Assembly (NCBI GenBank): GCA_051294905.1
Contig: CM119371.1
Span: 32,614,001 to 32,678,000 of the forward strand
Direction: 5' to 3'
Source: Botryllus schlosseri
Taxonomy: Eukaryota
DNA length: 64,000 nucleotides
In this document: piece after piece, positions 7,112 through 43,102 of the stretch
Layout of the letters: each line of letters starts with the position of its first letter
How positions within the stretch are numbered: position 1 is the first letter of the stretch
Made by a program: the position numbers and the translations under genes
Notes under the pieces: generated by a model
The model's database searches: none
What the model was told of the DNA's origin: nothing
The model's input: the letters and a program-made list of their open reading frames with translations, nothing else

Positions 7112-7650
7112 ATAGGAAGGTATTTGAAAGCCAATTTCGTCTACTAGAAACTCCTTTACACCTATATTCAAACGAACTTCTTAGTAGTGAATTTCGTCAT
7201 CCACCGCCGGCGACTTCCATGCCATAACCGAGTGTGCAAAAAGTAGCTAGTATGGGAAACCTAATACATGCTCAAACTCGGTCAGTATCAGAACGCAGAA
7301 ATGCAGGAAATACACAGTATTACAGTGCTTTTAACCTTTTTGGATACCGATTCGCACTTTTTTTTTGTAATTGAATTTCATTCGCTCAAATCAATAAATA
7401 TTGTTATAGTTTTCCTGATGTCTTGGGAAATAAGCTCCAACACGATCACAGAGAGTAGACTCATTAGAGCTCGCTACCTTATGATACGTTCCTCAGACTT
7501 GCGTTCGGTTTTTATTTCTCGATTTCCCATTTCCTGTCTCGCGAGTTAATGGAAAGAGCAAGGATCTCTCACTCGAAACTTAATAACAGTTCGAAAAACT
7601 TCAATAACCAACAACCAGCTTCTTGAACCACGAGAAAAATCAGAGATTTT

Positions 7651-8250
7651 GTGGCATCTCGCCGAGCCTCACACCTGGAAAATATGGTATTTGTAATATT
7701 ACAGTTGCATGCCACGATTTTAAGGACATTCATAACATTAACTACCGAACTTGCAGAACACAATTGTACGCAACACGAAACGTGTCTGACGCACGTGATT
7801 TCAAATAGGAGTGATTTAAATTCCCCTGCTCGTTGCATTTGTACTACTGTCCACTCAGATTGCAAGAACAGGACTATTCAGTGCCAACCGCCGACAACAG
7901 AGCGTATCGATTTGGAAAGGCTTGGCCATCCAGCGACGGTCATTTTTGACCGAGCTTTTGTCGCCGCTGATGCTTTTGGCACCGCATTTTATCAGCGATA
8001 TGTTGGCCAAACTTTACATTTTCCGGTGCCCCGACAAGCCAACATAGAAGGGTCTGGTCTCGAAATAAATGTGTCTCGCGGTCGTTGCACAGAAATGCAC
8101 ACCCCTACACTAGTTCATCTCAACGGTCTTCGACGACGTCTTTCAGAAAACCAGTCGTACAAATCCTATCATGAATCCAAACCAAAGGTCGCAGATTCTC
8201 ATGATAAAGCCATATTTTTGCTTATTGGATATAGTATGCAACAACAGTGA
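7651..8250 (+). pseudogene. longest open stretch (199 aa) of an unidentified decayed coding-like cassette (segment C)
   Basis: Homologous DNA at about 36950-37890, 59040-59730 and inverted at about 39830-40800. The copies give interrupted but mutually similar peptides. No family recognised, and frame and strand are uncertain. Confidence 0.3.
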
Positions 8251-8768
8251 CCCTGGATATGTAAAAATCATCGCCGGATTTTTTGCAATAAATTAAACAA
8301 ATACTACATACATATCAATAGATAGTTCTGGCAACGTGTCGACCTAACATCATATACTCTTTGCGGCCAATACTTTAATAACCCTTGAAGGGGTGAGAAT
8401 TTGCGCTGCAGTAACTTGCGAATGTGAGTCTGTAATGTTGGTACTAATCAATGAGCTCTTACATTGTTGTGCAACGTTATTCGACTCAGCTAGATTGACA
8501 GTCATATATACAACAATTTCATGGGGTTGGCAGCAGTGGCGTAGCAGCAGGTGCTGCCACCCATGGCTTTTCTTGAAAGTGCCGCCGCATAAGCACACCG
8601 CAGCAAATTTCGACATAGTTTCCTGTTCGAGCACTCTTTTCAATAAAAATAATTACAAATAATATGCCGCGTATCAGAAGTTCTATGTTGCTTGAGAAAG
8701 AAGCCCATCTCAGCGTTTATAATGCCAAAAACAATAATGACAAGAAATTGAGAACGAATGTATTAGTC

Positions 8769-10210
8769 CAGGGGCGGCCAACCCGTCACCCGCGAGAAGA
8801 TTTTGAGTGGCTGGCGAAATAATTCGCGAAATTAGCTGTAATATTAAATAATAAATATTCCATGTAATTTATTACCGTTATATATATCGTCTGCTATCGG
8901 CGCAACAAAGTATGTAATTTACTGTGAATTTTCAAGGTCCATCAAAAGTTTGATAAGCTTTACTGCGAAATTTGGGTTGGTAATGACTTGAGCATCATTT
9001 CCGACGCAATGGCGTAGCCAGGGGCCAGCCAGATTTTTCATAAGATCTTCGTATATGATCATAAAGTAGAATATTTCGTGGTAGATTTATTTGACTCGAT
9101 ATTTTTATTAGCACTTAGCGCGATTTATTGTCACTCAAATTCTTGCTTATAGTACTCCCTCCTTAAAATTCACCGAATTGAGTCTGACAATACTCGCAAT
9201 TATGAGAGAACGTGTCGTCCAACATCCGACTTCGCATCTGCATTTGTAGAAAGATGATAGGTGATGATGAAACATTCGTACAAAATGATAGACGCCTCTA
9301 CGCCGGAATCTACGATATTTATATGCCTAAGCGCCGAATATTCGTGTCCTTGTCAAATGAGCGCAGCGGCATGCAAAGGCGACCCGCAATATATGCAAGT
9401 GGCAGAGGTATTGGCCGAACTCATTCATTATAATTTAGAAAAATGTTAGCGCTTGGCTCGGTTAGTTCACGAGTGCACTATGCACGCTGACTTTTCACGA
9501 CATAATTGTTATCGATTTTGATGCCTAGTAATATACGTCTTCTTTCCAGGGTTGTAATGACTCGAGTCAGACTCGAGACACGATTTTCTGATGACTCGAC
9601 TTGACTCGAGTCATTTTTTAAAAATACGGAAATCACTTTACTCGATTCGAGTCAATCTGTGTATTGCGCATGACTCGAACCAAGTCATATGACTTGAGAC
9701 CAAGACGGCCAAGACCGATATTTCATTGTGATTTCGAAGAATAGTAAAGAAACCACCCTATCGGGTCGGGACTTCGACTATTGGTACTGGTACTTAAAAA
9801 GGCGACCAGAAACTGATAAAAGTGAGGAAAATTAGTATATTACAAACGCGAACCAGTCGATATCACCAAACAGAGTTATAAAAGTGGGTTTGACAAGACT
9901 TTAACTGGAAACTAAGCAGTCAACACGATGACTTGGACTCGGACTCGAGTCATAATACCATGAGTCGGACTCGAATACCGGGTCGATGACTTGGACTCGG
10001 TGGTGAATTGAAAATGACTCGACTTGACTCGTGTCAAAACTATAAAAGTGAGATTGACTAGTGACTCTGTTACAACCCTGCTTGTTTCCGTATAGTCCGG
10101 CTCGCTCCTATCGAACGACTCAAGAAAGGTCATCAAAATTCAACATCCAAGTGGCCTGCTCAATGATTCCCAAATCTCATGTGGCCCTTTGACCGAAAAG
10201 GTTGGCGCCA
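8769..10210. mobile_element. degenerate hAT-like MITE (CAGGGGCGGCCAAC family)
   Basis: Left end CAGGGGCGGCCAACCCG, decayed right end AAGGTTGGCGCC. Paralog at 38120-39000. Interior related to 43937-44520. Confidence 0.55.
9547..10080. mobile_element. hAT MITE, GACTCGAGTC-rich family
   Basis: TIRs CAGGGTTGTAA / TTACAACCCTG. TSD CTTCTTTC / CTTGTTTC (7/8). Absent at the paralogous site at about 38875. Confidence 0.85.
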
Positions 10211-10244
10211 TGTATTGGACAAATATAAAAAAATCAATAGCCGC

Positions 10245-10625
10245 CTCAAAACTGAACTCTCCGGGCTTTCAGCGGAACGAAATCAGCGACAATATTCTAA
10301 AAATCAAGTTTTTGAACGTAGTCCCTTTCTATAAAAAGAATGGATAGAGGTGATAGCCGATACTCATTCACGGTATAACGTAAATAAGACTTTATCAGTT
10401 TGAGCTTTGAGAATCTCGTCTCAGAGCTCGCAATTGAAACACAAATGGTCAGACACGTATGGTGTCGAATCATGTAGGTGTGATTTAACTAACCACCGTA
10501 AAACATCGAACGCTGTTGCATTACGATCAAAAGTGGTTTCACGGCTCCGCACCAGCCTCTTAAATCTGTCAATTTCCGCATCTAACTCCAATTTAACAAT
10601 GAAATACTGTTTTTAACAGAAATCT
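10245..10625 (-). pseudogene. hAT transposase C-terminal (dimerisation) remnant, ZMYM1-like type
   Basis: Frameshifted paralog of 39035-39415, which reads IASCERSFSKLKLIKSYL.STVNEDRLS. Confidence 0.75.
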
Positions 10626-10630
10626 ATTAC

Positions 10631-10670
<40 letters not shown>

Positions 10671-11095
10671 AGTATTGTACACATGGTGTTCGGCTACAAT
10701 GGCCTTTTACACCAGGTCTTAAGAGTCTGACAAAGCCATTAGCGTCACAACTGTCTGCCGGTGAGGATAACGAATTCAGCCACCGGTAGTAAAATACGTG
10801 AATCTGATAACAGTATTGTGAGATGAAACGGTATGCCTACATTCGCCGCTGTCGTCTTCAAGTGATTACGGTGGGTCGAATAGTGTTGGAAATGAATTGA
10901 AAAGTATTCGACCGTATCGTCGACGTATCGCATAAACCCATCTCGTGACATGCAATTCTGCGAAGGTGCCAGTGGATTCTACAGTGGCCCGTTTGCAATC
11001 TTATCAGAATTGATGAGATTGTTCGGGAGGATATGCTGCAGCTTGGCATGATTGGCTATACAGAGGTGACCCGCAATATATGTATCGGCCGTAGC
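10631..11095 (-). mobile_element. 5'-truncated non-LTR retrotransposon (I-group-like ORF2 C-terminus) with (AAC)n tail
   Basis: Minus-strand peptides ILIRLQTGHCRIHWHLRRIACHEMGLCD and DTVEYF...VAEFVILTGRQL*. Homologous to 25120-25385. (GTT)n at 10631-10670 is the 3' tail. Confidence 0.85.
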
Positions 11096-11099
11096 AATG

Positions 11100-11330
11100 T
11101 AAAACTTCGAATGCTGCTGCATTACGATCAAAAGTGGTTTCACTGCACCGCACCAGCCTCCTAAATATGTCAATTTCTCCAGCTAACTCCAATTTAACAA
11201 CACAATACTGTTCATAATCGAAAGCTATTGTTGCCTCTTTGATTGCGGCTGGTCGGGACAACGGAAACACCGTGAAATATACCCTTCTATGTTTGAACAT
11301 CGGCATTGTTCCGAATATTCGCTCGATATA
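11100..11330 (-). pseudogene. second overlapping hAT transposase fragment
   Basis: 11100-11235 is a diverged duplicate of 10500-10632. Reads ...DYEQYCVVKLELAGEIDIFRRLV..., directly upstream of the dimerisation motif in the other copies. Confidence 0.55.
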
Positions 11331-11580
11331 ATTTCCATTATCATGGTCAATTTGGTCATAGTGTTGCGGCGCTCCGATTAATCGGAACAATCGGTCTTGA
11401 CGGCTGTTTCGGATTGGTCCAATTGCCATGCTCACATTTTAATTTGTGTTTTCGGAATCAGTGCGACACTAGCTTTCGATTTAGACCAGTTGATTAAATT
11501 TGAGGTCTCGGGTCGCCATGCAGCTATAGGACTACAAATTATACGCTGCTTTTAGCCGGCTGTGTACTCTGTGCACTGTG

Positions 11581-12180
11581 CAGTAGGGGTCTTCAAAATG
11601 ACTTCTTTTCTCTATTTGTACTGGCTACTTGATAAAATTGTGAGGTTAGCTAATTTAGGCCTACACGCCAAATTACAACCAGTATAGCCTCAATTCCAAC
11701 CAGTATAGCCTCATTGCTACAGGAGAAATAAGTTTCTATTTATCACATAAAAATAAATACAAATATAATTGAAAATTATCTGTTCGCTCCATCAAAGTGT
11801 TAGGTTGTCTACAGAAACGATGTTCACCAAATTTGGTTCAAACCCAAGTCGTGGAAGCGGAGTTATTGCAGTCGCAAAATTTGGATTTGAATAAAATAGT
11901 AAATTAGTAATAATAAATATTTAAAGAATTGGTCACCGTAAATACTATTTTATTCATAATCCAAATTCTTCGACGGCCATAACTCCGCTTCCACTGGTTG
12001 GAATTGAACCAAACTTGGTGAACATCGTTTCTATAGACAGCCTAACACTTTCATGGGGTGAACAGAAATTTTCAAATGTTTTGGTATTTACTTGTACATA
12101 GTAAATAGAAACTTTCTTCTCTTGTAGCAATGCGTCTACTGGTTGGAATTGAGCCAAAGTTGGTGTGTAGGCTTGCATTA
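11581..12180. mobile_element. foldback-type MITE with long inverted arms
   Basis: About 11655-11901 is the diverged reverse complement of about 11943-12180, around a ~40-bp spacer. Related to 14127-14617. Confidence 0.7.
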
Positions 12181-12722
12181 GGTACGGTTCTCAACATTAA
12201 ATGACTTGGGAACCCCTGTGGCCGAGCTGGGCAATTATTTTTCTGAGAATAACAAGCAGAAATACGTTGAAGGATAAGTCAAAAGTTGGCACTATATGTA
12301 GTGTATGAATTCTAAAATGATGTTAGTCTGAGTTTTAGTTCTAGTAGCGGATTTTGAAAAGTGAGTAGTTCTAGTTTTAGTTGCGGATTTTAAGAAGTTG
12401 TTAGTTCTAGTTTTAGTTTTAGTTATCGTTCCGGGATTGAAAAATAATGAGTAGCTCTAGTTCTAGTTCTAGTTCTAGTTGTCCTTTTTGCATATCGAGT
12501 AGTTTGTATAAGTCTGAGCATGAGTCAGGGTTGTATCCAAATCACAAGGCTTCGAGTCACAAGTAAATCTCATTGATACAGTGTTGAATCGCGTCATTTT
12601 CAATTCGACACCGAGTCAAGTCAGGGTGCAGAGGGTCAAGTCCGAGTCATAGTCTTATGATTCGAGTCCGAGTCTGTGTCATTGTGTTGACTGCTCAGTT
12701 TCCTGTTGAAGTCTTGGTATAC

Positions 12723-13114
12723 TAGGGTTACCATACGTCCTCTTTTGAGAAGATTTGTCCTCTTTTTTGAATCTTTTGAAAGTGTCCTCGGAGGACGCCC
12801 TTTTGTCCTTTTTTTGAGAATTTAGGTCATATTTACTGCAACATTCGACTGATATGTCGTAAATCAGCGCCGGAGTGGTGCTCCGGGTATTTCGGGAACT
12901 GGGCGGGTAGTTGACCTTTTTTGTTAGTCAATCACCTAACAATGTGGAGGAAAATCTGTATTTTGGGCGTTGAGCGAGTAAGTTGACTTTTTTTGGTCAA
13001 CCGACGTCAAAGTAGAAAAAATTCGCCATTTTTTGAGAATTCACCTCCGGATTTGCAAGTCTGAAAATTCTGAATAAGTGTCCTTTTCAGATTTTCAAAA
13101 ATGTTGTAACGCTA
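12723..13114. mobile_element. hAT MITE (TAGGGTTACCATACGTCCTC family)
   Basis: Left TIR TAGGGTTACCA, decayed right end TGTAACGCTA. TSD TGGTATAC / TGTTATAC. GTCCTC repeats. Same family as 21208 and 52082. Confidence 0.8.
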
Positions 13115-13797
13115 TGTTATACCCATTTTATTATAACACTGTTTGGTGATATCGAATGGTTCGCATTTATAAAATACTAATTTTCCTCAATTTTGGCCGT
13201 TTCTGCTCGCATTTTCAAGTACCAAACCAATAGATGAAATCCCGACAGTATGGTCACTTCACTATTTTTCGAAATTGCGATGAAATGACGGTCTTGGTCG
13301 CAGGGTTGTAATGACTCGAGTCATGACTCGACTCGAGTCAGACTCGAGTCACGATTTTTTTATGACTCGACTTGACTCGAGTCAATTTCTTGAAATGGGA
13401 AAATGACTCGACTCGACTTGTACTCGAGTCATTACGCATGACTCGACCCAAGTCATTGACTCGGCTTATTTTATATGACTTGAAGATGAAGAAATTTGCG
13501 AATCATAATGGCTAGATCAACGCATCCGACGAATTCTGCCGACATCGCTATTTGTCACCACTGCTTTCTTCGCACTTGTCTCATATCAGATATGCCGCCG
13601 TAAAAACAACAGAAAATGTACATAGTAGCAATGCATTGTACAAAATCGTCCAGTGATGAAGAGGTAATAGATCCTCCGCAATTAAAGTACTCAAGACTTT
13701 TCAATTATACAAGCAAGCAATTGAATCAAAATTCAATTAGAGCCAATGAAATGACTCAGATGGTGAAGAGACTGATAAGCTCATGTGTAGATTTGAA

Positions 13798-14016
13798 GGC
13801 GATGATTCTTTGCATTTTTGGGCGACTAGAAAGAATGAGTATTGAATGCTATTCAGTGTGGTTCAAAAATGCTTGTCAATTCCTGCATCAAGTTCTAGTG
13901 CACTAGTGGAACGTGTATTCAGTATATGTGGATTCATTTTATGGCCATGCCGCTTTAACATATTTGAGGATCTCCTTTCCACATTAGTATTTTTGAGGTG
14001 TAACTCATTGATTTGA
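13798..14016 (+). pseudogene. hAT (Ac/ZBED-like) transposase dimerisation domain remnant
   Basis: Manual translation: DSLHFWATRKNEY*MLFSVVQKCLSIPASSSSALVERVFSICGFILWPCRFNIFEDLLSTLVFLRCNSLI*. Matches the FW...IPA.S...ERVFS..G motif. Confidence 0.88.
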
Positions 14017-14126
14017 TCTGCTGTCTGTGAAAACACACAATGCCCCTCGTCCATTTGACGTTTTGTTAGGTATGTGCATTGTGCACGTGAGTAATAATGA
14101 ATGGCTAATGTTATGTGAAGTTTGTA

Positions 14127-14617
14127 CAATATGGCTGTTCTAAAATAACTTCTTTTTTTATTTTACTGGGTGGTTACTTGATAAAATTGTTATGTTGCAT
14201 AGAAGGAACACTGAATCTGGCTTAATTTGAAAAAAGTGGAATCAATGATGTAAGAGGAGAATATTTTGGATTTGAAAATAAATGGAGTATTTTAGTGAGA
14301 AATTATTTCATATAATATAATTACATAGTAGTAAGCCGACTATTTTTTCATATCCAAAACATTCTAATCTAATAACTTCACTTTTTCTAGTTGGAATGGA
14401 GTCAAATTTGCTATGAATCATATTTTTACACAATGTAACAATATCATGAGATAGCCGGTAAAATTCGAAAATATCTATTTGAAATTAGTCTAAAATTTTC
14501 TTTCATAGCATTGCTTTCTACTGGTTGGAATTGAGCCAAATTTGATTTTTTAGGCAATCTAGCAATTTTAAGAAGTAGCCGGAAAATTTGAAAAAATGTT
14601 TTTGAACAGCCCCATTG
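14127..14617. mobile_element. TA-flanked foldback MITE (Tc1/mariner-like ends)
   Basis: TA|CAATATGGCTGTTCTAAAA ... TTTTGAACAGCCCCATTG|TA, with internal inverted arms. Related to 11581-12180. Confidence 0.6.
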
Positions 14618-16409
14618 TACAATCATTTCTCCAATGCTGTAACTGCGATGTAGTCTGTAATGCACTTTAGTATAATCAAAAGGTATCTGTTCTGTTGTCA
14701 CTGCACAATGTACATAGTTGCATGCACGCTTTTACAGCATGCTGGCCTGTTGTAAATACCTCTACATAAACATGCATCTATTGATTCTCTATCAACTAGT
14801 ATCTTGACGTGAATTTGTTGGTTCTCTATCAGATAGTATGTAGACGTGAATTCGTTGGCTCTCTATCAGCTATTCGTGAGCTATCGTCGCTGTGCTCATA
14901 ATAAAAACTGAATGCTTGTATTGGTGATGTATCAGACTGACAAGAGAGATATTTGATTTTAAGGTCTAAGATTAGTAAAGTTATCTTTAGCATCGGTAAA
15001 TGAGGCCAGGACCTGTCCGTTATCTGCCTAAATAAACACGTGTCAAGACTCTGGGCAAAATGAGCATGTTTCGCAAACAAGGAATTCGATATCACCCAAG
15101 CAGGATTGAAAACATGAGTTGAACATGACTTCAATACTGTGACTTGGACTCGACTCGAGTCATAACACCATGACTCGGACTTGACCCCTTAAACGGTGAC
15201 TTGGACTCGGACTCGAGTCTGTGATGAATTGAAAATGACTCGACTCGAGTCAATACCACAAAAGTATGATTGATTCGTGACTCGGAACCATGTGACTTGG
15301 TTACATCCCTGCTTGGTCGTCTGAGTCTCGATTCATATGACTCGGTTCGAGTCATGAACCGTATTTTGAGAAAATGACCCGAGTCGAGTCATCAGAAAGT
15401 TGTGACTGGAGTCGGATTCGAGTCATTATAGAACCCTTGTATGAACCCGTGCTCGATGGTTGTTATAGCAACCAGGGTTGAAATGACTCGAGTAAAGACT
15501 CGACTCGAGTCGAGTCATGTTTTCAAAATACGGAAATGACTCGACTCGAGTCAATCTGTGTATTGACTCCACTTGGACTTCATTTCGCATGACTCGAGCC
15601 AAGTCATATGACTTGAGAATCAGACGACCAAGACCGACATTTCATTGTAATTTCGAAGAATATTAAAGTCACCGCACTATTGGGATTTCATCTATTGGTA
15701 CTGGTACTTGAAAATGCGACCAAAAACTGTGTGAAAAGTTAGTATATTATAAATGCGAACCGGAATCGCCTATGCGTAACAAAAACAAATTTCTTTAGTG
15801 AGGAACACTGACTCCCAAGTTTTATTTCTTTGTGGAGCTCATCATTTTCTTCTGCTGTTCGCATATGTACTGTGAAGCTAAAATTGATCGAATGAAGTCT
15901 TATTGAATCACGCAGGGCGCGAAGAAAATTTCGAGATTACTGAATCTCTTAAAGAATTTAGGAGTAAAATCGTGAAGCCCATTTGCAGGTCCACTGCCGT
16001 CAACACATAGTAATTGAATCACATGTCAACGGCCGTATAAATATACTTCTACGGACGCAGGTTGGCCACCCCTTGCAATATAGGGATAGCATATTTTGAG
16101 ACCCAAAATCAGGCACTCATTACAAATTCGAAATTTATTATATTGGACGCGAATACGGGTAATTTGAAAACCTATATAGAAAATCCTGTTGTGTTGCCCT
16201 AAAAAAGTTATGTTGCCATCTCCACTCCTGCAAAACCATCGAAGTAGCTCGCAACTCGTAAGTTTAAACAAACTTCGCTAAGTTGCGACCGTACGAGTTC
16301 ATGACCTTCAGCAGTAGAATAAATGCAAAGTCGTATTTCTTTGTAGCTGCATAGTCGTAACGGTAATTTGGATGAAATTTTATTGTTATTGACGGCTTAC
16401 CAGCAAAAA

Positions 16410-16442
<33 letters not shown>

Positions 16443-16752
16443 CCATAGCCATAGATGTCAATAGTTTCTCAGTGCTTAGTGCTCAGAATTTCACATCCCT
16501 TGGTGGATTTGAGGGGATTTCGGTATTCTGGCATAGTCAATATTTGGACTTACGGAATCAGTGCGTCGATAGCATTTGATTGATGCTAGTTATTATAAAT
16601 TATCAGCTGTCAATGATGAATTACATTATCGAGGTGAGGCACGACTGGCAATTATCTTATACTTGTCCAGACGACAGGTGAGGTATTGCCTCACTCCCCT
16701 TCCTGACTGCACGTCACTGAAATGATCCCTCCGCAGTACCATGCTTATTGCT

Positions 16753-18534
16753 TAGGGCCGTAACAGTACGTCGTCAGCCCCCCTCAAAACGGTGGTTTCG
16801 GGCCTCCATACGATGATATACCGAACTGCTGGGGTGCTTCTCCCCCCAGACCCCTCAGGCTGCACGCTGTTTACCGCTACTTATAATCTACATTGGAGGC
16901 CGTTTACTGAAGCAGCATTTCTGGCGTTAATTTCTATTATTCATGAATGAATCGGTCCATAAGATCGGGAGTTGCATGTATATTGTTATTGCAATCAATT
17001 TCTTGTCCTCTCTGCTCACGTAATCAGATTTACCGGTAGAGCTAACTGAGGTGTCTTGGATAGGCTACTGTATGGCCCGTTGGTATGACTCCGTAGCATG
17101 ATGTTATTTCATGACCTCCTGTCTGCTATATCAAAAAAAAAAATAGAATCGCCCAAACGTAGGCTATTAAACTAAAAAACGCACACGATTTTAAATCGGT
17201 ATTCCTTCACTGGCATATAATTTTTCCCTGCGTGATGGTATATGTCTTGTGAGGTTCAGATTGCCGAGACAAGAACATTCGGCAGCCGTCATTTAGGCGC
17301 CTATGGACAATAAAACCTATATGTGCATATGTGCATATAACGAAGTTTTCGGTCAGCATAAGGGCAGTCCTTTTCGGCCAAGGTTTTCTCGCTGCCGATC
17401 GTTCTGGCACACTTCTTGGAGTCGCATGTTACATGGCGTAAAACACTGGTTCTCAATTTTTTGTCTTCGCGGACCCCTTTTGGACCACCACGGACCTCGC
17501 AGACCCCCTCAAGTTTTCGTTCAAAATTAGCTCGATTATCGCGCAACCGCCATCTGTCTCGTGCAGATACTGATTGTAGGCTATTGATAAACAGCAACAA
17601 AATGGCTTTTCTTGAAAATAGCATCACAGTATATGTAAAAATTGGGTAGACTTTTATTATATAGTAACGAATTTTGCAGCTGTATTTATTGTCTTGAAAA
17701 TCCGTGACTTCGATTGGATACGAACGAGTGCCAAAAATCCATTTTCACACATATATATTGGTGGCGAATGTAATATTAACGCGTAACGCTTTCGACGACA
17801 GATTTTTGTTGTGAGTTTTTAATAAAAAGTTCACGTCCAGCCTGGTCGTTTTTATTTATGATCTCAGCTTGAAGTTATTTAGTGGTTATATCACAGGAGT
17901 AAATGGATTTCTTAGAGAGTTTTCAATTACTTCATTGGGACAGATTAGGAAAAAATAAGGAATTTATATTTAAACGACTGTTTGATAATTTGCTGAGACT
18001 GACAACTCCAAATCCAAAGTGCTACCTCTAACATTTCATTTTTCCACAGACCCCAACAAAACATCTCTAAACAGTAGGATGTGTCATCTCAGAAGACCAT
18101 TTCAATGATGTGAGTCCTAAACTTTTAGCAATTATGAAGCGAAACCGTCATGCCTTTCCTAACTGAAAAAATAGGTTATCAATCTCATTACAAATTTAGA
18201 GGCTTCGCGGACCCCCTGAAAACGCTTCGTGGACTCCCGGTTGAGGACCACTGACCAAAAACTTTATATGTCTTGGTGCATCGTGGCGTGGTAATGGCCA
18301 ACACCGATATGCCCATTTCAATAAATCTTGCGTATTTTTTCGTGGGGGAAGAGTACCCCAAAATCAAGATATTTGGCAACTTGAAATCGCGCCCAGCGTG
18401 AATAATTTTTGAAAATGTTGCATAAATTTTCAAAAAATACTCTATAATTTATGGTAATTCATGAAATAATTTAGGGCCCCCTTCGAGCTCGCCCCTCCAA
18501 TTGGGGGGTTTGAAGAGCGGCAGTTACGGTCGTG
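16753..18534. mobile_element. composite hAT element (CAGGACCGTAAC family), unit-1 copy
   Basis: Paralog of 43424-47207 with damaged ends (TAGGGCCGTAAC / GTTACGGTCGTG), followed by CTTATATA. Confidence 0.75.
17444..18253. mobile_element. nested hAT MITE (CAGTGGTTCTCAAC / GCGGACCCC family)
   Basis: Ends CACTGGTTCTCAA / TTGAGGACCACTG. Paralog of 46156-46976. Empty site at about 1700. Confidence 0.8.
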
Positions 18535-19261
18535 CTTATATAATAATGGATATTATTAATATTAATAAATAATGCATATATATTAATGCAAGGGGCATAT
18601 ACCGTAAGTCAATCCATACTTGTTTCAATGTGGAACATAGGTTCGTTTTGCAGACGGGTCCACGAAAAGTATTTTATCTTTGAAACCGCTCCGCAGAGCT
18701 AAAATGGTTGCCGATCTACTTCCTTAATACACACTTTATTTATAGGGTTGTGTTCTGTGCATCCTTCAACTATTTGAAATCCTTTTATATCTGAAAACTC
18801 CTCAAATTATGAATGACTTTTTTAGACAGACACATATTGAGTAAGCACATGCATTGCAGCTTTGCACCAAAGCCACCCATGGCATGTATAATTTTACTAT
18901 GTCTTAAATTAGAACTTTTATGAGTAAGTTTCTGTGACTTCATTCTACACTCAGCTCACATAAGTGTTCTTGAGATGGTCTATCCACAGTATCTGAATCT
19001 CAAAAACTTCAGATATTCAATACTAAACCAGCTAACAGAACACAGATCTGTACAAATATCAGTAATAATCAGTCACGTTACAAGAACTGCTGCTGAGACT
19101 TTATTAAGCGTCTAACCGTCGAAGCGGCTAGATGGGAAAGACACAGGAACAACACAAGACATCACTACTATAACAGGGAGTGGTATAGAGCACGGCTGCC
19201 ACATATCGACTGCAATTGTACATGTGAATATCCCTATGCATTTTATGAAACGTCAATGAAT

Positions 19262-20434
19262 TTACGTCAGGAAATATTGGAGAACAAAATCCAATAATTG
19301 GACAGAGATGAAAAAAAAAACGTTTTTCAGATACTTGAATGTAATACATATTAATGAGTTTACGCTTGGAGTAACCCTTCGCAGTATATGCTCTCTCCCA
19401 TACATTTCATCCAAGTTGTTGATGCCAGTATGCACATTCATATGTCGCCGGAGGTGATTCTTCTGATTAAACGCTCTCCTGCATAAATCACATTTATGAT
19501 TTTTGATGCCTGCATGTATGTACATATGAAGCTTGAGGTGACCCTTTTGAGAAAATGCTTTTCCACATACAGCACATCCATAATCTTTGATACCAGCATG
19601 CATATTCATATGTTGCTTGAGGTCCAGTTTATGAGTAAATTCTTTTCCACATACATCACATTTATGTCTTTTGATGCCAGCATGCATATCCATATGACGT
19701 TTGATGTGACCATCCTGAGTAAGTGCTTTTCCACATACATCACATTTATATTTTTTGATGCCAGCGTGCATATTCATATGTCTCCTGAGGCCATCCTTCT
19801 CAGTAAATGCTTTCCCACATACATCGCATTCATGATTTTTGATGCCAGCATGCATATCCATATGACGTTTGATGTGATCATCCCGAGTAAATGCTTTTCC
19901 ACATACATCACATTTATATTTTTTGATGTCAGCGTGCATATTCATATGTTTCCTGAGGCCACCCTTCCCAGAAAAGGCTTTCCCACATACATCACATTCA
20001 TGATTTTTGATGCCGGCATGCATATCCATATGACATTTGATGTCACCATACTGAGTAAATGATTTTCCACACACATCACATACATGATCTTTGATGCCAG
20101 CATGTATATGCATATGTTTACTGAGGACATGTTTCTGGGTAAATGCTTTCCCACATATATCACATTCATGTCTTTTGACGCCAGCGTGCATATCCATATG
20201 AGACTTGAGGTAGCTCTTCAGATGAAATGATTTCCCACATATACCACATTCATGACTTTTGATGCCAACATGCATATTCATATGTCGCTTGAGGTTATTC
20301 TTCATTGTAAATGCTCTCCCACATACATCACATATATGAGTTTTGGTGTACGCGTTTTGCGAGAACTCTTCTCTGGCAACATCGCATGGATGATCTTTCA
20401 AGTCGTGATGAATAGATAATTTCTCTGACTCCAT
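19262..20434 (-). CDS. tandem C2H2 zinc-finger protein, 11 fingers (ZF-1)
   Basis: 390-aa ORF with 11 CxxC-x12-HxxxH units at 28-aa spacing. ATG is in GACATGG context with an in-frame stop 13 codons upstream. Upstream exons cannot be excluded. Confidence 0.9.
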   Translation of the reverse strand: MESEKLSIHHDLKDHPCDVAREEFSQNAYTKTHICDVCGRAFTMKNNLKRHMNMHVGIKSHECGICGKSFHLKSYLKSHMDMHAGVKRHECDICGKAFTQKHVLSKHMHIHAGIKDHVCDVCGKSFTQYGDIKCHMDMHAGIKNHECDVCGKAFSGKGGLRKHMNMHADIKKYKCDVCGKAFTRDDHIKRHMDMHAGIKNHECDVCGKAFTEKDGLRRHMNMHAGIKKYKCDVCGKALTQDGHIKRHMDMHAGIKRHKCDVCGKEFTHKLDLKQHMNMHAGIKDYGCAVCGKAFSQKGHLKLHMYIHAGIKNHKCDLCRRAFNQKNHLRRHMNVHTGINNLDEMYGREHILRRVTPSVNSLICITFKYLKNVFFFISVQLLDFVLQYFLT

Positions 20435-21207
20435 GTCGCCCTTGTTATGGAAATGACCGTACGATGGTGTTTATTTATTACAGTGGAATATCTGTTTTCA
20501 AGTTCAAAGTGGTTATTACATATTTTCAACAATTTCTTCAGTGTATATACCAGTAAGCTAGTTCTTTGACGGTATGGCACTGTCTGATAAATATGAAACT
20601 ATGAAAGTGTCGAACTAATCTTAACAAAGAGCAGCATTAGACTGTCATTGTCATACTATTATATCATGCAATAAAAATATGATCACGTATTTAAACAATT
20701 TGATCGGAATTAGTCAAATAGCATCAATGCGATCATCATTTTGATCACTTCTGAATAATTAAAACTATAGACAGATAATACCACTATGAAAAACTATTGA
20801 CAAAACATCCTCAATTTACAACAAATCACCGATCAACTGGCAAAGCAACATAGAGCTTTGTGGTAAAGGTGCATATATATCTGCTGGTGAAGAGAACGTA
20901 TGGCTCATTTTTGGACACGAAATGGCCTCGTAGTTGAATCTTCAATCTCGCACTTAATTCTCGTCTTGGTTATAAATATCGCTGTAACGATTTGGTGGAT
21001 TTCATAATGGCCTGAATCATTATTCTTGTGGTACCTGAGACAAGTGTATGTGAGGTTACCTTAACATACAAAATATAGACGTATGCAAGTTAAACTCAGA
21101 TGTCACTACTAAGATTTTTATTAAAGTCATTTCGACACCATCGGATTTTCGAAAGGCACAATGGCACTCCGATGTAATCCGGTTTTGACAAAAATATGTA
21201 TATATTA

Positions 21208-21630
21208 TAGGCTTACCATACGTCCTCTTTTAAGAGGATTTGTCCTCGTTTTTGGCTCTTTTGAAAGTGTCCTCGGAGGACGCCCTTTTGTCCTCTTTTT
21301 TGAGATTTTGTCCTCTTTTTTGAAAATTTAGGTCAGATTTAGAGCAAATTGCGAGTGATATGCCGCAAATTAGCACAGAAGTGAAGCTCCGGCGGGTATT
21401 TCAGGTCTGAGCGAAAAGATGACCTTTTTTTTTTAGTCATCCACCTGGCAATGCGGAGAGAAAAACGGTATTTTTAGCTCTGAGCGGAAATAATAACCTT
21501 TTTTTTAGTCAACCGATCACAAAGTGGGAAAAATTAACCGGTTTTTCAGAATTCTACTCCGGTTTTGCTGCAAGTTGCAAATTTCTGAAAAAGTGTCCTC
21601 TTTTTAGATTTCCAAAATATGGTAAGCCTA
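21208..21630. mobile_element. hAT MITE (TAGGCTTACCATA family) upstream of ZF-1
   Basis: TIRs TAGGCTTACCATA / TATGGTAAGCCTA. TSD ATATATTA / AAATATTA. Confidence 0.88.
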
Positions 21631-22593
21631 AAATATTATCCCTCAGGTATCACACACTTACACTATCATAACATTCGGGAAATATTAGTCTTAAATTAGA
21701 ATTACGTTTATGATTCACAATGAGCAGACTATGGGACTTCTACAACGACAGGCCTGTAAAGTAGGCTACAAGATGTAAAATGGCAAATGATGAAAACACC
21801 GACTTGAAAACATCTATGTCACAAACGACATGGATATTGAAAAAAAAAATTTGACTTTGTAAACAATTTTTACACTTTTTTGTCCTAAAGCAACAATTAT
21901 TACAATATTTTTACTTTTTTTGCGAAGTTAAAAAAAAACCTTGTCTTTAACCATGGAAAATCGCGCTTCGTTATAAGAATTTTTTGCGTCGTGACATTCA
22001 AAAGATATTAAATAGATGTTACAAGAGCGCTCTGGTGTCGTCGCGACCCAAAATTGTACCATTCGTGTCCCATACTTCAAGAACTCCTGTCCTGCAGTCA
22101 TAGTCATGTTTAAAGCGTGGTAATAACCGCTGCCCCTAGGCCGATTTACCTAAAATATACGCATTTGCTCGTAGTAATCATATTAAAATCTGGTCCTGTG
22201 AAGACATGTACTCGCCGCAAGCGCGACGGAGATTTTCAAGTTGAATAGATCTCCAACAAACGACCAACGTAATATTTTAGGCCCCTTCTATCTCTCCAGA
22301 AATGGGGGTTTGGGGTGCAGCAGCTATGACCCTGGTAGATCGTCTTCAGGGGCGTCAAACATACGGCCCACGGGCCGATTCCGTCATACCAGGCCATTTT
22401 ATGCGGAAGCAATTATGAGTGAATTCTTGTATTATCCAGCACGTTTACAACAAATGTTGTTCACAGAAGCCAAAAAGCCAACGCTAGACCGTCTTGACAT
22501 AAACCCAAATTGCGATTTAATACTAATGAGCATGATTTCAATATCTGCGTTTATAGTCAAACTTGAAACGAAATGGAGCATAGAAATATGCAA

Positions 22594-22761
22594 AACTACT
22601 TACTTACTTGAGTAGATTTAAAGCCAGCAAATTCTACTTCTACTTCAAGTAGTTCTAGGTTGCTTATGTAAGAAGTACTTCTACTTGCACTTGAGTAGAT
22701 TTTTGCATCGCTACTTCTACTTCTACTTGAGTAGTTTTCTTGACTACTTTGACCACCTCTG
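22594..22761 (+). mobile_element. isolated right end of CAGAGGTGGTCA-family hAT element
   Basis: Matches 49228-49395, including TACTT repeats and terminal TGACCACCTCTG. Confidence 0.8.
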
Positions 22762-31705: not shown

Positions 31706-34700
31706 GTTACATTGCTCTAGTGATAAATGCGCGCTTCTCGTCAATGCTATTCTAGAAACACGTCAATTTCAAAGTTAAATATGCATGCAAAAAGCCATTG
31801 TACCGCTCAGACATACGTAGAACAGCTAAGCCACGAAAGTAGCTATATAGCCTCAAGCTATGATTATAATTATCAGCCAAAATAGAGAATACGAAACCTA
31901 AGAAATTAGAAATTAATTGATGTAATGCAATACGCTGCCCAAGTAGGCTACATAACTATGAGATACAAGTCAAGCCTGCGCCAATGGTTGACGGTTAATA
32001 TATACTTATACAATATATTCAATATATATTTAAATCAAACCAGAGGTCTGGGGAGAATCGAGCACTATGAGCAGTCTATAGAACAGACATAGATATCTTA
32101 CTCTTACATTACTTTAATACTAGTTTACAACCCTAGGTGCCAACTTTTATTTTCGCACCACAGGGGTTCTTAAAGTATGGGTCGCGGCCCAAACATAGGT
32201 TGCGAAGGGTATAAATTTGGGTCGCTCCCGCCCATAGCGATCGCTAAATATCTTGGAACAACAAAAGTTCTTCGGGTCTCGCGTGATATCCTGTGCATAG
32301 CTTGTAGGTGTACAATGCTCAGGGGTTATGGCCAATAAGTGAATCACGCATAAAAGTCGTTACTACAATGGAGTGATAATGAAAATGTGCCAACATTCGT
32401 ATTACACAAATTGGTTTGATGTCATGATAACATATTTCTGACATTGGTTTCTCTAGAAAGGTCTAACTTTCGCGGGTAATATACTCTGACAGGGTAGAGG
32501 GAGGGAAAGAGTGCGGCCGTAACTGCCGCATCCGATATCTTTTTATGAATACGCGTTAAGTTACTCAAATGAATCAACTTTATTTGCAATTGTGACGTAT
32601 AGGCTACCGGTATATCCCTAGAATTGCTTAGCGTCGCCGACGATCGTTGGGCTGCTTCCAACTATGGGTGTGCAACAAAGTTGGATCAATTAAAATTTGT
32701 AATTGGGACGAATGTAATTAATGCATTTTTTGTGTAATTGTAATTGTTATTGAAGCATTTTTATTTTGTGTGATTGTGATTTTATAAAATTTTGGCCTAA
32801 TTACAATTTCAATTACTGTACACTGTTATTGAAATTTACCAAGCAAAAAATAAAATATTGAAGTGATGTAATTCTTAGTAAGGTTCCGTCTCCGGTTCTT
32901 TGGATGTGAATACGCTAAGAGTGTAGTCTTGTAGGTTTAGAGTTGGACAAAATTGAATATAGAAGTCAATTTCACCGTCAAAATACTGGCCCAGTCTGAA
33001 CTTTTTTATCGAGTACAACTGATATTGACGCGTCTGGAGTCATGGCTTGAATCGAGTGCCATTTTCTGAATGACCTGACGTGAGTCACTCCACTGAAATG
33101 AATTGACTAACTTGAATTCGACGCATGCATATTACTGAATGATTCATACTTGAGCGCGAATTCTTAACATATCTTTCAAGTCATCAACTATTCTGCCTCG
33201 CGAAACCTCGCGAAACCTCTCGATCAATAGGCATGCTATAATCCTTTATTCACTGGATTCGACTTCCGTTTACGTTTTGGATGTGGTAAGTTCGATCAGC
33301 ATGTAGTGACATCTCATATAAAGGAAACGACATCGGCATGCTAGGAAAAGCCACAATAACTGTTTTCACAGGCACTAAAATATCATTAAATCCAAGACTA
33401 AATACATTCAATCAGATGGATCAGAAGGGAAGTTTTTCTATGTTGACAATTTCTAAGAAATCTGATTACGATTTATTATTTTCTCAACAAAAGTTTCTCT
33501 TTCACATAAACATGTAATCGGCTTTGCCTTTTTAGCATAAAGCTTGCATCCATCCTGCATTGTTTTCTCAATGAACATTACTTTCACGGAATTATGCCCC
33601 AATGCCACTTTGGATAGCGCAAACCGTATTTTCAGCATTTTCATTCCATTATACGCATAGAAGAGTATATTACAGCAGACCAGATTCATTTAGTCACCGA
33701 GTGACGTATTGTACTACCACGGAAGGATCCAGGTTAAAACCAATCATACCTGACTATCGAAACATAAACTTCTCAACCTCTCTCATACTGGTAGACTTAT
33801 GGTTAGCTATCAAGGTTACAAAATATTCCAAAGACTAGTGAATTAGACAGCGAATACACGCCGCGCACAATATGTGCAATATTGTCCACACCGACTTGCA
33901 GAAATTACTGGATTTCCAAAAAGCGCAACTACAATTACTACTACAACTAATCAATTTTGGAAACTAGCAACTAGAATTAAATAAAGAACTACTCACTTTT
34001 CAAACTACGCAATCATATTAGGACTAGAACTAATCTCCTTTCGAAGCCCGTAGCTAGAACTAGATCTAGCTAGAACTAACGACCTTGCAAAATTAATAGA
34101 CCGCAGAATATTGAGCAACATTTAGACTTGACCCTCGAACCTATTTACTGCTTCTCATTCTCTGAAAAATAATTAAATTTACTAAGAAACACATTGATTT
34201 TTATTTTATCGGTAATATTATACGCAGAATCGTCATTTCAAGAGGAAGTGTTTCGAGTTTAAAATAGGAGAGATTTCGACCCCCAAACCTCACCCGTTGG
34301 CTACGCCACTGTTAGCAGTGATGGCTTTGAGCGACCAATGGCAGCATAAACATCATTCAGCAGAACGCCGGTATCTCGAATCGCGCAAAACAACAGCACG
34401 TGTATTCTAGTTATCCGGCAACTAATATTTCTTCAAATGTGAAACCAGAACTAGATCTATAGAACTACTATTTTTTTCAAAATTCGAAACTAGAACTAGA
34501 ACTAGAAGTACTCAAAACACCGTTAGTTATAGTTGAACGGCAACAAACCAAATGAGTAGTGTGTACTCTGATTCAACAGTTTAACCATGACTTAACCCTC
34601 CACTCCAGTAGTCATATAAAAAAATGAACAAATACGAATCCAGGCTGCATTCTAAATTAAATTAGAGTAGATTTCATAGTCGAAATACCGGTGCGCTATA

Positions 34701-39034: not shown

Positions 39035-39415
39035 AAAACTGACCTTTTCGGGCTTTCGCCGGAAAGAAATCAGCGACAATATCCAAAAAATCAAGTTTTT
39101 GAACGTAGTCCCTTTCTATAAAAAAGAATGGATGGAGGTGATAGTCGATCCTCATTCACGGTAGAACATAAATAAGACTTTATCAGTTTGAGCTTTGAGA
39201 AGCTCCTCTCACAGCTCGCAATTAAAACACAAATGGTCAGACACGAATGGTGTGGAATCAAGTAGGTGTGCTTTAAGTAACCACTGTAAAACAGCAAACG
39301 CTATAGCATTATGATCAAAAGTGGTTTCTCTGCTCCGCACCAGCCTCTTGAATCTGCCAATTTCCGCATCAAACTGCAATTTAACAATAGAATACTGTTC
39401 TTAATCGAAAGCTAT
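39035..39415 (-). pseudogene. hAT transposase dimerisation-domain remnant (ZMYM1-like type)
   Basis: ORF 39091-39297 reads LTICVLIASCERSFSKLKLIKSYLCSTVNEDRLS. Frameshifted. Confidence 0.88.
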
Positions 39416-39445
39416 TGCTGTTGTTGTTTGTTTGTTTGTTTGTGG

Positions 39446-43044: not shown

Positions 43045-43047
<3 letters not shown>

Positions 43048-43102
<55 letters not shown>
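43048..43102. repeat. (GA)n microsatellite
   Basis: Pure GA run. Shorter paralogous run at 16414-16440. Confidence 0.95.

What the first reader, a model, noticed from the sequence alone, without database searches (positions are those of the whole stretch)
19583..20338. ZF paralogs differ mainly at base-contacting helix positions
Seen: a manual alignment of fingers 1-9 (19583-20338 vs 50457-51212) shows 9 nucleotide differences, 7 non-synonymous and 2 synonymous. Four of the 7 are at recognition positions: finger 5 +3 (G/D), finger 6 -1 (R/Q), finger 7 -1 (E/G) and finger 9 -1 (H/N). Known: positions -1, +2, +3 and +6 (4 of 28 residues) set C2H2 specificity, and this pattern typifies PRDM9 and vertebrate KRAB-ZFPs. 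Inference: diversifying selection on target specificity in a KRAB-less invertebrate array. The counts are small, and inter-finger conversion could give the same pattern.
Basis: partly seen in the sequence, partly recalled or inferred. Interest (0 to 1): 0.8.

Follow-up and report, generated by a model that had tools for sequence, protein, structure and literature searches.

The report
Fast-changing DNA-reading residues in zinc-finger paralogs
Two recently recombined copies of a zinc-finger gene differ mostly at the residues that read DNA bases, and other young gene pairs of the same large family show the same bias, which fits selection for new DNA targets but is not proven by this pair alone.

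Summary
Window 19583-20338 and 50457-51212 (minus strand, nine C2H2 fingers) differ at 9 bases, 7 non-synonymous and 2 synonymous. Four of the 7 fall at helix positions -1 or +3.

This pair cannot prove selection. Coding divergence (1.19%) equals that of the non-coding 5' flank (1.30%). The excess at contact positions gives p=0.009 under a uniform null but p=0.15 when weighted by the family's own variability. My codon model gives omega 3.9 at contact sites, p=0.12.

The 21-mers around all four contact differences occur only at the three orthologous sites in the 495 Mb assembly.

Independent evidence comes from 10 other paralog pairs. Pooled contact omega is 1.50 (p=0.00045) against 0.35 elsewhere, and 4.8 in the three youngest pairs. 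The signal weakens under the strictest filter against conversion, and one real helix-sized conversion exists in the family.

Copy A is a recombinant. A ~3 kb tract of 98.7% identity lies inside a duplication of 87-92% identity.

Verdict: a new example of a known kind (KRAB-ZNF and FiNZ-ZNF style diversification). Interest is moderate.

The parts
19262..20434 (-). Gene A: open reading frame of 390 aa from the ATG at 20434. It has a 32-aa N-terminal peptide, 11 C2H2 fingers and a short tail, and no other domain.
19583..20338 (-). Fingers 1-9 of gene A, the stretch named in the finding. It has 9 differences from copy B, 7 non-synonymous and 2 synonymous. Contact-position differences are at 19959 (F5 +3), 19884 (F6 -1), 19800 (F7 -1) and 19633 (F9 -1).
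19499..19582 (-). Hybrid finger 10 of A. Its first half matches finger 10 of B and its second half matches B's penultimate, decayed-array finger. The recombination junction lies at about 19558-19562.
19563..22594 (.). Young high-identity tract shared with 50437-53472. Differences are 28/2159 (1.30%) in the 5' flank and 9/756 (1.19%) in fingers 1-9. It sits inside an older duplication of 87-92% identity. It ends at a high-copy repeat.
20339..20434 (-). N-terminal pre-finger coding stretch with 8 differences in 96 bases (8.3%), both synonymous and non-synonymous. Codon 9 reads H, P and Q in copies A, B and C. The A-lineage cluster of 4 changes in 15 bases has no donor in the assembly.
49773..51308 (-). 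Gene B: open reading frame of 511 aa from the ATG, with 16 intact fingers. It ends at a stop inside a further finger.
50457..51212 (-). Fingers 1-9 of gene B, the partner stretch of the finding.
49396..49772 (-). Decayed distal fingers of B. Together with the stop that ends the B reading frame at 49773-49775, the array carries three in-frame stops, and several zinc ligands are lost. The last two fingers correspond to A's F10 (second half) and F11.
48113..49395 (.). Insertion in B relative to A that interrupts B's last finger. Its right end (49225-49396) is a high-copy repeat also present at 22591-22762.
3149..19444 (.). Older duplicated block, matching 32863-48112 in pieces at 87-92% identity. 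It gives the background age of the A/B duplication.
34556..62980 (.). Block containing gene B. It is duplicated at 97.4-99.6% identity at G000:C1:32540012-32570000, which holds copy C, 107 kb upstream.

Best explanation
A, B and C are young members of a very large C2H2 zinc-finger gene family specific to this lineage. The family has H-A-G-I-K-N type linkers, and neither KRAB nor any other domain is detected in the reading frame. It is concentrated on one 41.8 Mb contig.

The cluster grows by segmental duplication and is reshuffled by ectopic recombination. Copy A received a ~3 kb tract (5' flank plus fingers 1-9.5) from a B-like gene. The tract joined out of register to A's own penultimate finger, which removed the decayed middle of the array.

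Since that event the framework of the fingers has been held by purifying selection. Point substitutions have accumulated faster than the neutral rate at the helix positions that contact bases (-1, +3, +6, less so +2). This changes the DNA triplets each finger prefers.

The family-wide pattern is best read as recurrent positive (diversifying) selection on binding specificity shortly after duplication, as in KRAB-ZNFs and fish FiNZ-ZNFs. The A/B pair is a small sample of that process.

Shown here: the counts, the recombinant structure, the absence of donor fingers, and contact omega above 1 across pairs.

Inferred: that these proteins bind DNA in the canonical mode, that the changes alter targets, and that the driver is a conflict such as transposon silencing.
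For: Membership in the fold:
- The fingers are canonical. Pfam zf-C2H2 scores E=8e-58.
- The nine fingers align without gaps to the DNA-bound ZFP568 chain 5v3m_C, E=1.1e-66.

The pair itself:
- 4 of 7 replacements are at contact positions.
- Contact 4/86 sites against flank 28/2159: Fisher p=0.032, Poisson p=0.027.
- Non-contact pN is 0.0056, against 0.0130 in the flank.
- The 21-mers of either allele at all four contact sites occur only at A, B and C in the whole assembly, so these are point substitutions.

The family:
- I took 43 non-redundant zinc-finger reading frames and chose 11 pairs. 131 of 143 in-register fingers were kept, at 80% identity or more.
- NG86 contact omega exceeds 1 in 9 of 11 pairs, with Fisher p<0.05 in 5 of 11. 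Non-contact omega is 0.22-0.86.
- My partitioned codon model gives contact omega above 1 in 9 of 11 pairs, significant in 4.
- Pooled over the 10 pairs without A-B, contact omega is 1.50 (p=0.00045) and non-contact 0.35. The three young pairs give 4.78 (p=4e-6).
- Keeping only fingers with at most 3 differences gives 3.45 (p=0.015).
- Isolated single differences in the four youngest pairs: contact 12/477, other replacements 15/3025, synonymous 7/781.5. Omega is 2.8, p=0.022.
- The highest pooled pN values are at +3 (0.251), -1 (0.223) and +6 (0.216). Values at +1, +4 and +5 are low, which is the DNA-facing periodicity.
- Entropy over 671 fingers has the same top three positions.
- L063 finger 11 carries three single-base changes exactly at -1, +3 and +6, with no donor in the genome within 2 mismatches.

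Recombinant origin of A.
Against: - The pair alone is not significant by the likelihood-ratio test (2dlnL 2.41, p=0.12) or against synonymous sites (p=0.16).
- Its overall pN/pS is about 0.76, and finger divergence equals flank divergence.
- Weighted by the family's own positional variability, 4 of 7 has p=0.15.
- Two older pairs have contact omega below 1, and L041-L049 is significantly so (0.59, p=0.035).
- With the strictest filter (at most 2 differences per finger) the pooled contact omega falls to 2.28 (p=0.09), and to 1.82 (p=0.30) without A-B.
- A true helix-sized micro-conversion exists in the family. The helix of L063 finger 2 is identical over 24 bases to the helix of L004 finger 1.
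- Conversions limited to the helix would give a contact-to-synonymous count ratio of about 2.3, close to what is observed.
- Pairs were picked from only about 60 loci, because no more sequence could be fetched. A-B and B-C share copy B.
- The codon model is my own pairwise script, not codeml or HyPhy.
- I showed neither expression, nor DNA binding, nor any target.
Confidence: 0.55

Rival explanations
1. Relaxed constraint without positive selection. After duplication the contact positions are simply free to drift (omega about 1) while the framework stays constrained. On this reading the 4-of-7 pattern in A/B, and the excess in a few other pairs, are sampling noise plus a few conversions.
For: - Finger divergence (1.19%) equals flank divergence (1.30%).
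- The replacement to synonymous count is 7:2, against about 4.6:1 expected from the site counts.
- 4 of 7 has p=0.15 under the family's variability weights.
- The A-B likelihood-ratio test gives p=0.12.
- Older pairs sit near or below omega 1.
- The strictest filter removes significance.
- B and C have decayed distal fingers and a repeat insertion.
Against: - Pooled contact omega is above 1 without the A-B pair: 1.50 (p=0.00045), and 4.78 in the young pairs (p=4e-6).
- It is still 3.45 (p=0.015) after dropping fingers with more than 3 differences.
- Isolated single substitutions give omega 2.8, p=0.022.
- A-B contact sites exceed the flank rate, p=0.03.
- No zinc ligand is altered in fingers 1-9 of A, B or C.
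Confidence: 0.3
2. Micro-conversion. The differences at helix positions are pasted in from other fingers or paralogs in short tracts. This would mimic an excess of contact-site replacements without new mutations being selected.
For: - The helix of L063 finger 2 is identical over 24 bases to the helix of L004 finger 1. That accounts for 7 clustered differences, including one synonymous.
- The A/B locus itself carries a 3 kb ectopic tract.
- A helix-only tract would give a contact-to-synonymous count ratio of about 2.3.
- Two of the A/B differences come in close pairs, 8 and 10 bases apart.
Against: - For all four A/B contact differences, neither allele's 21-mer exists anywhere else in the 495 Mb assembly, nor as 15-mers among the sequences I held, apart from three unrelated hits for one allele.
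- The L063 finger 11 and finger 1 helices have no donor within 2 mismatches.
- Whole-finger conversion predicts contact: other: synonymous counts of 0.81: 1.61: 1. The observed counts are 4:3:2 and 17:9:6.
- Isolated single differences still show the excess.
Confidence: 0.1
3. Artefact. The differences are assembly or consensus errors, or A/B/C are haplotypes of one locus laid side by side, so that the 'paralog divergence' is really allelic polymorphism.
For: - B and C are 99.3-99.6% identical over at least 28 kb, which could be a retained haplotype.
- Contigs of run X4 show only B-type letters at 19633 and at the flank sites.
- The best run holds only 0.56 of the sampled words.
Against: - All 9 differences are substitutions that keep the frame.
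- Contigs of an independent sample (X5) carry A-type letters at 20245 and 19633, and match the A-specific 3' end 19314-19510 with no other letter.
- A has its own 3' end and flanks only 87-92% identical to B, so A and B are separate loci.
- Contigs drop minority variants, so X4 cannot show absence.
Confidence: 0.05

Closest known systems
Mammalian KRAB zinc-finger genes (lineage-specific expansions; Emerson and Thomas 2009, PMC2604467, passages read)
   Same: - Tandem arrays of 28-residue C2H2 fingers in clustered, recently duplicated genes.
- Copies differ in finger number.
- Replacement changes are concentrated at -1, +3 and +6, with omega above 1.
- Short gene conversions occur among paralogs.
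   Different: - No KRAB domain in the reading frame and none found in the genome (control uninformative).
- The linker is H-A-G-I-K-N, not T-G-E-K-P.
- In that paper the two invertebrates tested (mosquito, fruit fly) gave no significant signal.
- TRIM28-type silencing and transposon targets are unknown here.
FiNZ zinc-finger genes of cyprinid fish (Wells et al. 2023, PMC10547256, passages read)
   Same: - A huge KRAB-less ZNF family specific to one lineage.
- Positive selection in young paralog clades, with base-contacting residues enriched for omega above 1.
[quoted passage not shown]
   Different: - FiNZ genes carry a conserved N-terminal FiNZ domain. Here only a 32-residue N-terminal peptide resembling a degenerate finger precedes the array.
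- Here there is no expression or knock-down evidence.
PRDM9 zinc-finger array
   Same: Rapid change focused on DNA-contacting positions of a C2H2 array, with recombination within the array.
   Different: - No PR/SET or KRAB-like domain.
- Fingers within one gene here are only about 72-81% identical to each other at the DNA level. They are not a minisatellite of near-identical repeats.
- The family has hundreds of loci, not a single gene.
ZFP568 bound to DNA (PDB 5v3m, chain C)
   Same: Best solved match. All nine fingers align without a gap, with the same 28-residue period and 7-residue linkers, E=1.1e-66.
   Different: It is a mouse KRAB-ZFP. Similarity rests on the conserved framework. The contact residues and the linker sequence differ.

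Membership tests
Tandem C2H2 (Krueppel-type) zinc-finger proteins | Repeated C-X2-C-X12-H-X3-H motif with conserved Phe and Leu | tested here: met
   All 11 fingers of A and all 16 of B fit the motif. Consensus over 671 family fingers is.
Tandem C2H2 (Krueppel-type) zinc-finger proteins | Profile match above the curated cut-off | tested here: met
   PF00096 scores 190 bits against a cut-off of 25.2. PF13465 scores 235 bits against a cut-off of 40.
Tandem C2H2 (Krueppel-type) zinc-finger proteins | 28-residue period with 7-residue linkers, as in DNA-bound arrays | tested here: met
   Gapless alignment of 251 residues to ZFP568 chain 5v3m_C.
Tandem C2H2 (Krueppel-type) zinc-finger proteins | Canonical T-G-E-K-P linker | tested here: not met
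   The consensus linker is A-G-I/V-K-N-H. Only the Gly and Lys are shared with the canonical linker.
Tandem C2H2 (Krueppel-type) zinc-finger proteins | Sequence-specific DNA binding through helix positions -1, +2, +3, +6 | not testable with these tools
   Inferred only, from the periodic variability pattern: high at -1, +3 and +6, low at +1, +4 and +5.
KRAB zinc-finger proteins | N-terminal KRAB domain | tested here: not met
   Pfam finds only zinc-finger families in the A and B frames. PF01352 has 0 matches in the genome, but the control search rang in no genome. An upstream exon cannot be excluded.
KRAB zinc-finger proteins | Omega above 1 at DNA-contacting residues among young paralogs | tested here: inconclusive
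   Not significant for A-B alone (p=0.12). Significant when pooled over the other pairs. Sensitive to the strictest conversion filter.
KRAB zinc-finger proteins | Binding and silencing of transposable elements | not testable with these tools
   No binding or expression data were available.
PRDM9-like | PR/SET methyltransferase domain joined to the array | tested here: not met
   No such domain in the reading frames.
FiNZ-ZNF | Conserved FiNZ N-terminal domain | not tested
   No model was at hand. Only a 32-residue peptide precedes finger 1.

The most novel reading that the evidence does not exclude
This may be an invertebrate counterpart of the KRAB-ZNF and FiNZ-ZNF arms-race families. The family has hundreds to more than a thousand loci, a non-canonical H-A-G-I-K-N linker and no known effector domain, and it is packed onto one chromosome-scale contig. 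Each new duplicate would be retargeted in two ways: by positively selected point changes at -1, +3 and +6, and by pasting whole recognition helices between fingers. Out-of-register recombination could also rescue decaying arrays, as it appears to have done in copy A. If so, adaptive retargeting of zinc-finger arrays does not depend on KRAB/TRIM28 and is older and more widespread than the vertebrate cases show.
Probability: 0.35. Interest if true: 0.65.

Novelty: new member of a known kind. Interest (0 to 1): 0.45.

Why it matters
Positive selection on the base-contacting residues of tandem zinc fingers is the signature that links KRAB-ZNFs (and fish FiNZ-ZNFs) to an arms race with transposons.

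Outside vertebrates the evidence is thin. In the passages I read, Emerson and Thomas 2009 found no significant signal in the fly and mosquito expansions they tested. Wells et al. 2023 inferred generality mainly from entropy and predicted binding. My two literature searches turned up no explicit test of this kind on an invertebrate family. That does not show that none exists.

A KRAB-less family with a different linker and a measurable omega above 1 at -1, +3 and +6 would give a tractable non-vertebrate system for asking two questions. Is retargeting of zinc-finger arrays a general animal response to genomic parasites? Which effector does it use?

The locus also shows concretely how ectopic recombination and helix-sized conversion reshape such arrays.

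Tried and rejected
- **More family members.** The family test therefore rests on the window plus loci L001-L063.
- **Expression.** No RNA holder was listed for the stretch. In the one raw RNA run laid (X23), 476 of 478 laid reads lay only partly on the stretch, and most sat on high-copy repeats. Nothing can be said about transcription. X5 is only guessed to be RNA and also covers the non-coding flank.
- **Taxon.**
  - The protein search gave only 29-47% identical zinc-finger proteins from vertebrates and arthropods.
  - A search with the RNase H-like frame found nothing.
  - The protein atlas gave generic zinc-finger clusters.
  - The earlier-notes look-up by place ('near') and the one by sequence found nothing.
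- **KRAB in the genome.** There were 0 matches, but the control genomes also gave none, so the search has no shown sensitivity.
- **Other content of the window.** Pfam on 16 further frames gave only a weak RNase H hit below its cut-off, and the remnant finger of B.
- **A tandem-junction reading, rejected.** I first read 22591-22762 and 49225-49396 as a tandem-duplication junction. Read depth shows it is a high-copy repeat.
- **Unfiltered L016-L028 alignment, rejected.** It included non-orthologous fingers, so I replaced it with per-finger identity filters.
- **Polarising the changes.** Only F2 could be polarised (Gly ancestral, shared with L016) along with the B-specific F5 +3 Asp. No close outgroup exists for fingers 3-9.
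Full report
**What is there**

The window is G000:C1:32614001-32678000 of a 495.5 Mb assembly in 219 contigs. On the minus strand lie two zinc-finger genes.
- Gene A runs 19262-20434 and encodes 390 aa with 11 fingers.
- Gene B runs 49773-51308 and encodes 511 aa with 16 intact fingers.

Pfam finds only C2H2-type families in both (zf-C2H2 E=8e-58 and 1.3e-92). The nine fingers of the finding align without a gap to the DNA-bound mouse ZFP568 chain 5v3m_C (E=1.1e-66). The linker is H-A-G-I/V-K-N-H, not T-G-E-K-P. Only a 32-residue peptide that looks like a degenerate finger precedes finger 1.

**The observation**

Window 19583-20338 and 50457-51212 are both 756 bases, align without gaps and differ at 9 bases. 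Seven differences change the protein:
- F2 G/R, between the two Cys
- F4 S/A and F9 E/A, at the residue before the conserved Phe
- F5 +3 G/D
- F6 -1 R/Q
- F7 -1 E/G
- F9 -1 H/N

Two are silent.

A third copy, C, lies 107 kb upstream of B (G000:C1:32557429-32558184). It is nearly identical to B. In fingers 1-9 it differs from B only at the F5 +3 codon, where C keeps Gly like A so that Asp is derived in B, and at one silent site. C sits in a block of at least 28 kb that is 97.4-99.6% identical to window 34556-62980.

**Are the differences real?**

Contigs of an independent sample (X5) match the A-specific 3' end (19314-19510) and 20141-20295 with no other letter, and they carry the A letter at 19633. 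Contigs of X4 carry the B letters at 19633 and at 14 flank sites where A and B differ. Both forms therefore exist in reads. Because contigs drop minority variants, X4 does not show that A is absent.

**Architecture of the locus**

A self-comparison shows an older duplication, 3149-19444 against 32863-48112, at 87-92% identity. Inside it, 19416-22594 matches 50290-53472 at 97.4%. Divergence by segment:

| Segment | Differences | Divergence |
|---|---|---|
| 5' flank | 28/2159 | 1.30% |
| Fingers 1-9 | 9/756 | 1.19% |
| N-terminal coding stretch (96 bases) | 8/96 | 8.3% |
| 19416-19582, in-register alignment | | 19.8% |

The last figure is an alignment effect. That part of A is orthologous to a different part of B. 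B's array continues past finger 16 into decayed fingers. There are three in-frame stops and lost zinc ligands, and a repeat-bearing insertion of about 1.3 kb sits in the last finger. A 19437-19556 matches B's penultimate and last fingers with 5 mismatches in 120.

Finger 10 of A is a hybrid, with the switch at about 19558-19562. A is therefore a recombinant. A ~3 kb tract from a B-like gene (5' flank plus fingers 1-9.5) is joined out of register to A's own penultimate finger, and the decayed middle of the array is absent. The far end of the tract coincides with a high-copy repeat. The 9 differences have accumulated since that event.

**Does the pair show selection?**
- NG86 gives 2 synonymous differences over 134.8 sites and 7 non-synonymous over 621.2, so pS is 0.0148 and pN 0.0113. 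Overall the fingers have diverged as much as the flank.
- The replacements are unevenly placed: 4 in 86 contact sites against 3 in 535 other sites (Fisher p=0.0087). The binomial p is 0.009.
- Against neutral yardsticks the contact rate of 4.7% exceeds the flank (p=0.032 Fisher, 0.027 Poisson). It does not significantly exceed the synonymous rate (p=0.16).
- A GY94-type codon model of my own, with separate omega for contact and other codons, gives 3.89 and 0.42, with 2dlnL=2.41 and p=0.12.
- If replacements are expected in proportion to how variable each position is across the family (contact positions hold 31.6%), 4 of 7 has p=0.15.

The pair is suggestive and typical of the family, but it is not decisive.

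For each of the four contact differences I searched the whole assembly for the 21-mer around it, allowing either allele. Each occurs at exactly three places, the orthologous sites of A, B and C. Among the sequences I held, no 21-mer of either allele occurs elsewhere. These four differences are point substitutions.

The 27-mer around the F2 difference is shared by A and the outgroup paralog L016, so Gly is ancestral and Arg arose in the B/C lineage.

**The family**

The query hit 1,694 first-look candidates. By my hand count, about 120 of the 150 listed matches lie on contig C1. From the window and 63 fetched loci I extracted 43 non-redundant zinc-finger reading frames. I formed 11 pairs of 84-99.6% DNA identity. 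They are disjoint except that A-B and B-C share B. I kept fingers aligned in register with at least 80% identity, which was 131 of 143.

- **NG86.** Contact omega exceeds 1 in 9 of 11 pairs, with Fisher p<0.05 in 5. Non-contact omega is 0.22-0.86.
- **Codon model, per pair.** Contact omega exceeds 1 in 9 of 11 pairs. It is significant in L004-L063 (5.62, p=0.0002), L035-L058 (3.60, p=0.0005), L016-L028 (4.08, p=0.008) and L034-L036 (2.00, p=0.02). One older pair, L041-L049, is significantly below 1 (0.59, p=0.035).

Pooled codon-model estimates:

| Pairs pooled | Contact omega | p |
|---|---|---|
| 10 pairs without A-B (non-contact omega 0.35) | 1.50 | 0.00045 |
| 3 young pairs without A-B | 4.78 | 4e-6 |
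| 7 older pairs | 1.29 | 0.038 |

By position, pooled pN is highest at +3 (0.251), -1 (0.223) and +6 (0.216). It is low at +1, +4 and +5 (0.051-0.065). Entropy over 671 fingers ranks +3, +6 and -1 first. This is the periodicity of the DNA-facing side of the recognition helix.

**Conversion in the family**

It does happen. The helix of L063 finger 2 is identical over 24 bases to the helix of L004 finger 1, which explains 7 clustered differences.

To guard against this I ran four checks.
1. I counted only differences with no other difference within 12 bases in the four youngest pairs. That gave 12 contact in 477 sites, 15 other in 3,025 and 7 synonymous in 781.5. Omega is 2.8 with p=0.022, and p=0.066 without A-B.
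2. I kept only fingers with at most 3 differences. Contact omega is then 3.56 (p=0.004), or 3.45 (p=0.015) without A-B.
3. I kept only fingers with at most 2 differences. It is then 2.28 (p=0.09), or 1.82 (p=0.30) without A-B. This filter also discards genuinely multi-hit helices.
4. L063 finger 11 has three single-base changes exactly at -1 (W/R), +3 (T/A) and +6 (L/H). Its 27-mer is unique in the genome within 2 mismatches.

Whole-finger conversion would give contact: other: synonymous counts of 0.81: 1.61: 1. A helix-only tract would give contact: synonymous of about 2.3. The observed young pairs give 4:3:2 and 17:9:6.

**Reading**

The best-supported account has three parts.
- The gene cluster duplicates and recombines quickly.
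- Purifying selection holds the finger framework.
- The base-contacting residues change faster than neutral soon after duplication, mostly by point substitution, with some helix-sized conversion.

The A/B pair is a small sample of this. From recalled recognition-code rules, an Arg/Gln change at -1 and a Gly/Asp change at +3 would shift the preferred base. This is inference, not tested here. I give this account 0.55. Plain relaxation of constraint at contact sites gets 0.30, conversion as the main cause 0.10, and artefact 0.05.

**Comparison with what is known**

Positive selection at -1, +3 and +6 among young poly-zinc-finger paralogs is established for vertebrates. In the same study the mosquito and fly expansions tested gave no significant signal (PMC2604467, passages). 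Fish FiNZ-ZNFs show the same signature, and base-contacting residues are reported as among the most variable in several metazoans (PMC10547256, passages).

Two full-text searches surfaced no explicit test of this kind on an invertebrate family, which does not prove that none exists.

This locus meets the defining features of tandem C2H2 proteins except the canonical linker. It fails the KRAB and PR/SET criteria. It works like a KZNF or FiNZ family but is a member of neither. I could not name the organism. Earlier notes of this scan call the genome an animal's and mention marine invertebrates, and I did not verify this.

**Limits**
- Only about 60 loci of a family with more than a thousand candidate stretches could be examined.
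- The codon model is a pairwise script, not a tree-based site model.
- No close outgroup polarises fingers 3-9.
- Expression, any upstream exon, DNA binding and targets are all unknown.

Noticed in passing
window 20339-20434 (minus strand), and the same stretch of B and C: The N-terminal pre-finger peptide is a divergence hot spot, with 8 differences in 96 bases against 1.3% in the flank. Both silent and replacement changes are involved. Codon 9 reads His, Pro and Gln in A, B and C. A carries 4 changes within 15 bases, three of them A to G, with no donor in the assembly.
   Followed up: partly
window 49396-49868 and 48113-49395: B (and C) keep a decayed tail of fingers with in-frame stops and lost zinc ligands. 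A ~1.3 kb insertion ending in a high-copy repeat interrupts the last finger. A lacks all of this because of the out-of-register junction in its finger 10.
   Followed up: yes
G000:C1:32540012-32570000 (L031-L033) against window 34556-62980: A block of at least 28 kb that contains gene B is present twice, 107 kb apart, at 97.4-99.6% identity. It may be a very recent duplication or a retained haplotype.
   Followed up: partly
window 19625-19626 and 20212: Contigs of other samples carry further variants at contact positions. In X5, F9 +2 changes from Leu to His (two adjacent bases). In X12 and part of X4, F2 +3 changes from Tyr to His, and His is also the state in paralog L016. I cannot tell whether these are alleles or cross-laid paralogs.
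   Followed up: no
L004 and L063 (G000:C1:32731027-32732586 and 33456714-33458273): This paralog pair is 725 kb apart and 97.8% identical. The recognition helix of finger 2 in L063 is a 24-base copy of the finger 1 helix as kept in L004, a helix-sized micro-conversion. Finger 11 differs by three single bases exactly at -1, +3 and +6.
   Followed up: yes
window 21128-21679 and 22600-22783: Very high-copy short repeats lie in the 5' flank of gene A. Summed contig depth is 10^5-10^6, against tens elsewhere. The second repeat marks the end of the A/B high-identity tract.
   Followed up: partly
window 19487-20062 (+) and 50220-51104 (+): Long open frames of 191 and 294 aa run antisense through the finger arrays. 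They are most simply a by-product of the repeated codon pattern and not genes.
   Followed up: no
L028 and L029 (G000:C1:32524154-32524762 and 33403757-33404365): Two zinc-finger genes 880 kb apart encode identical 432-aa frames. Together with L004/L063, this points to recent large duplications between the 32.5-32.7 Mb and 33.4 Mb parts of the contig.
   Followed up: no
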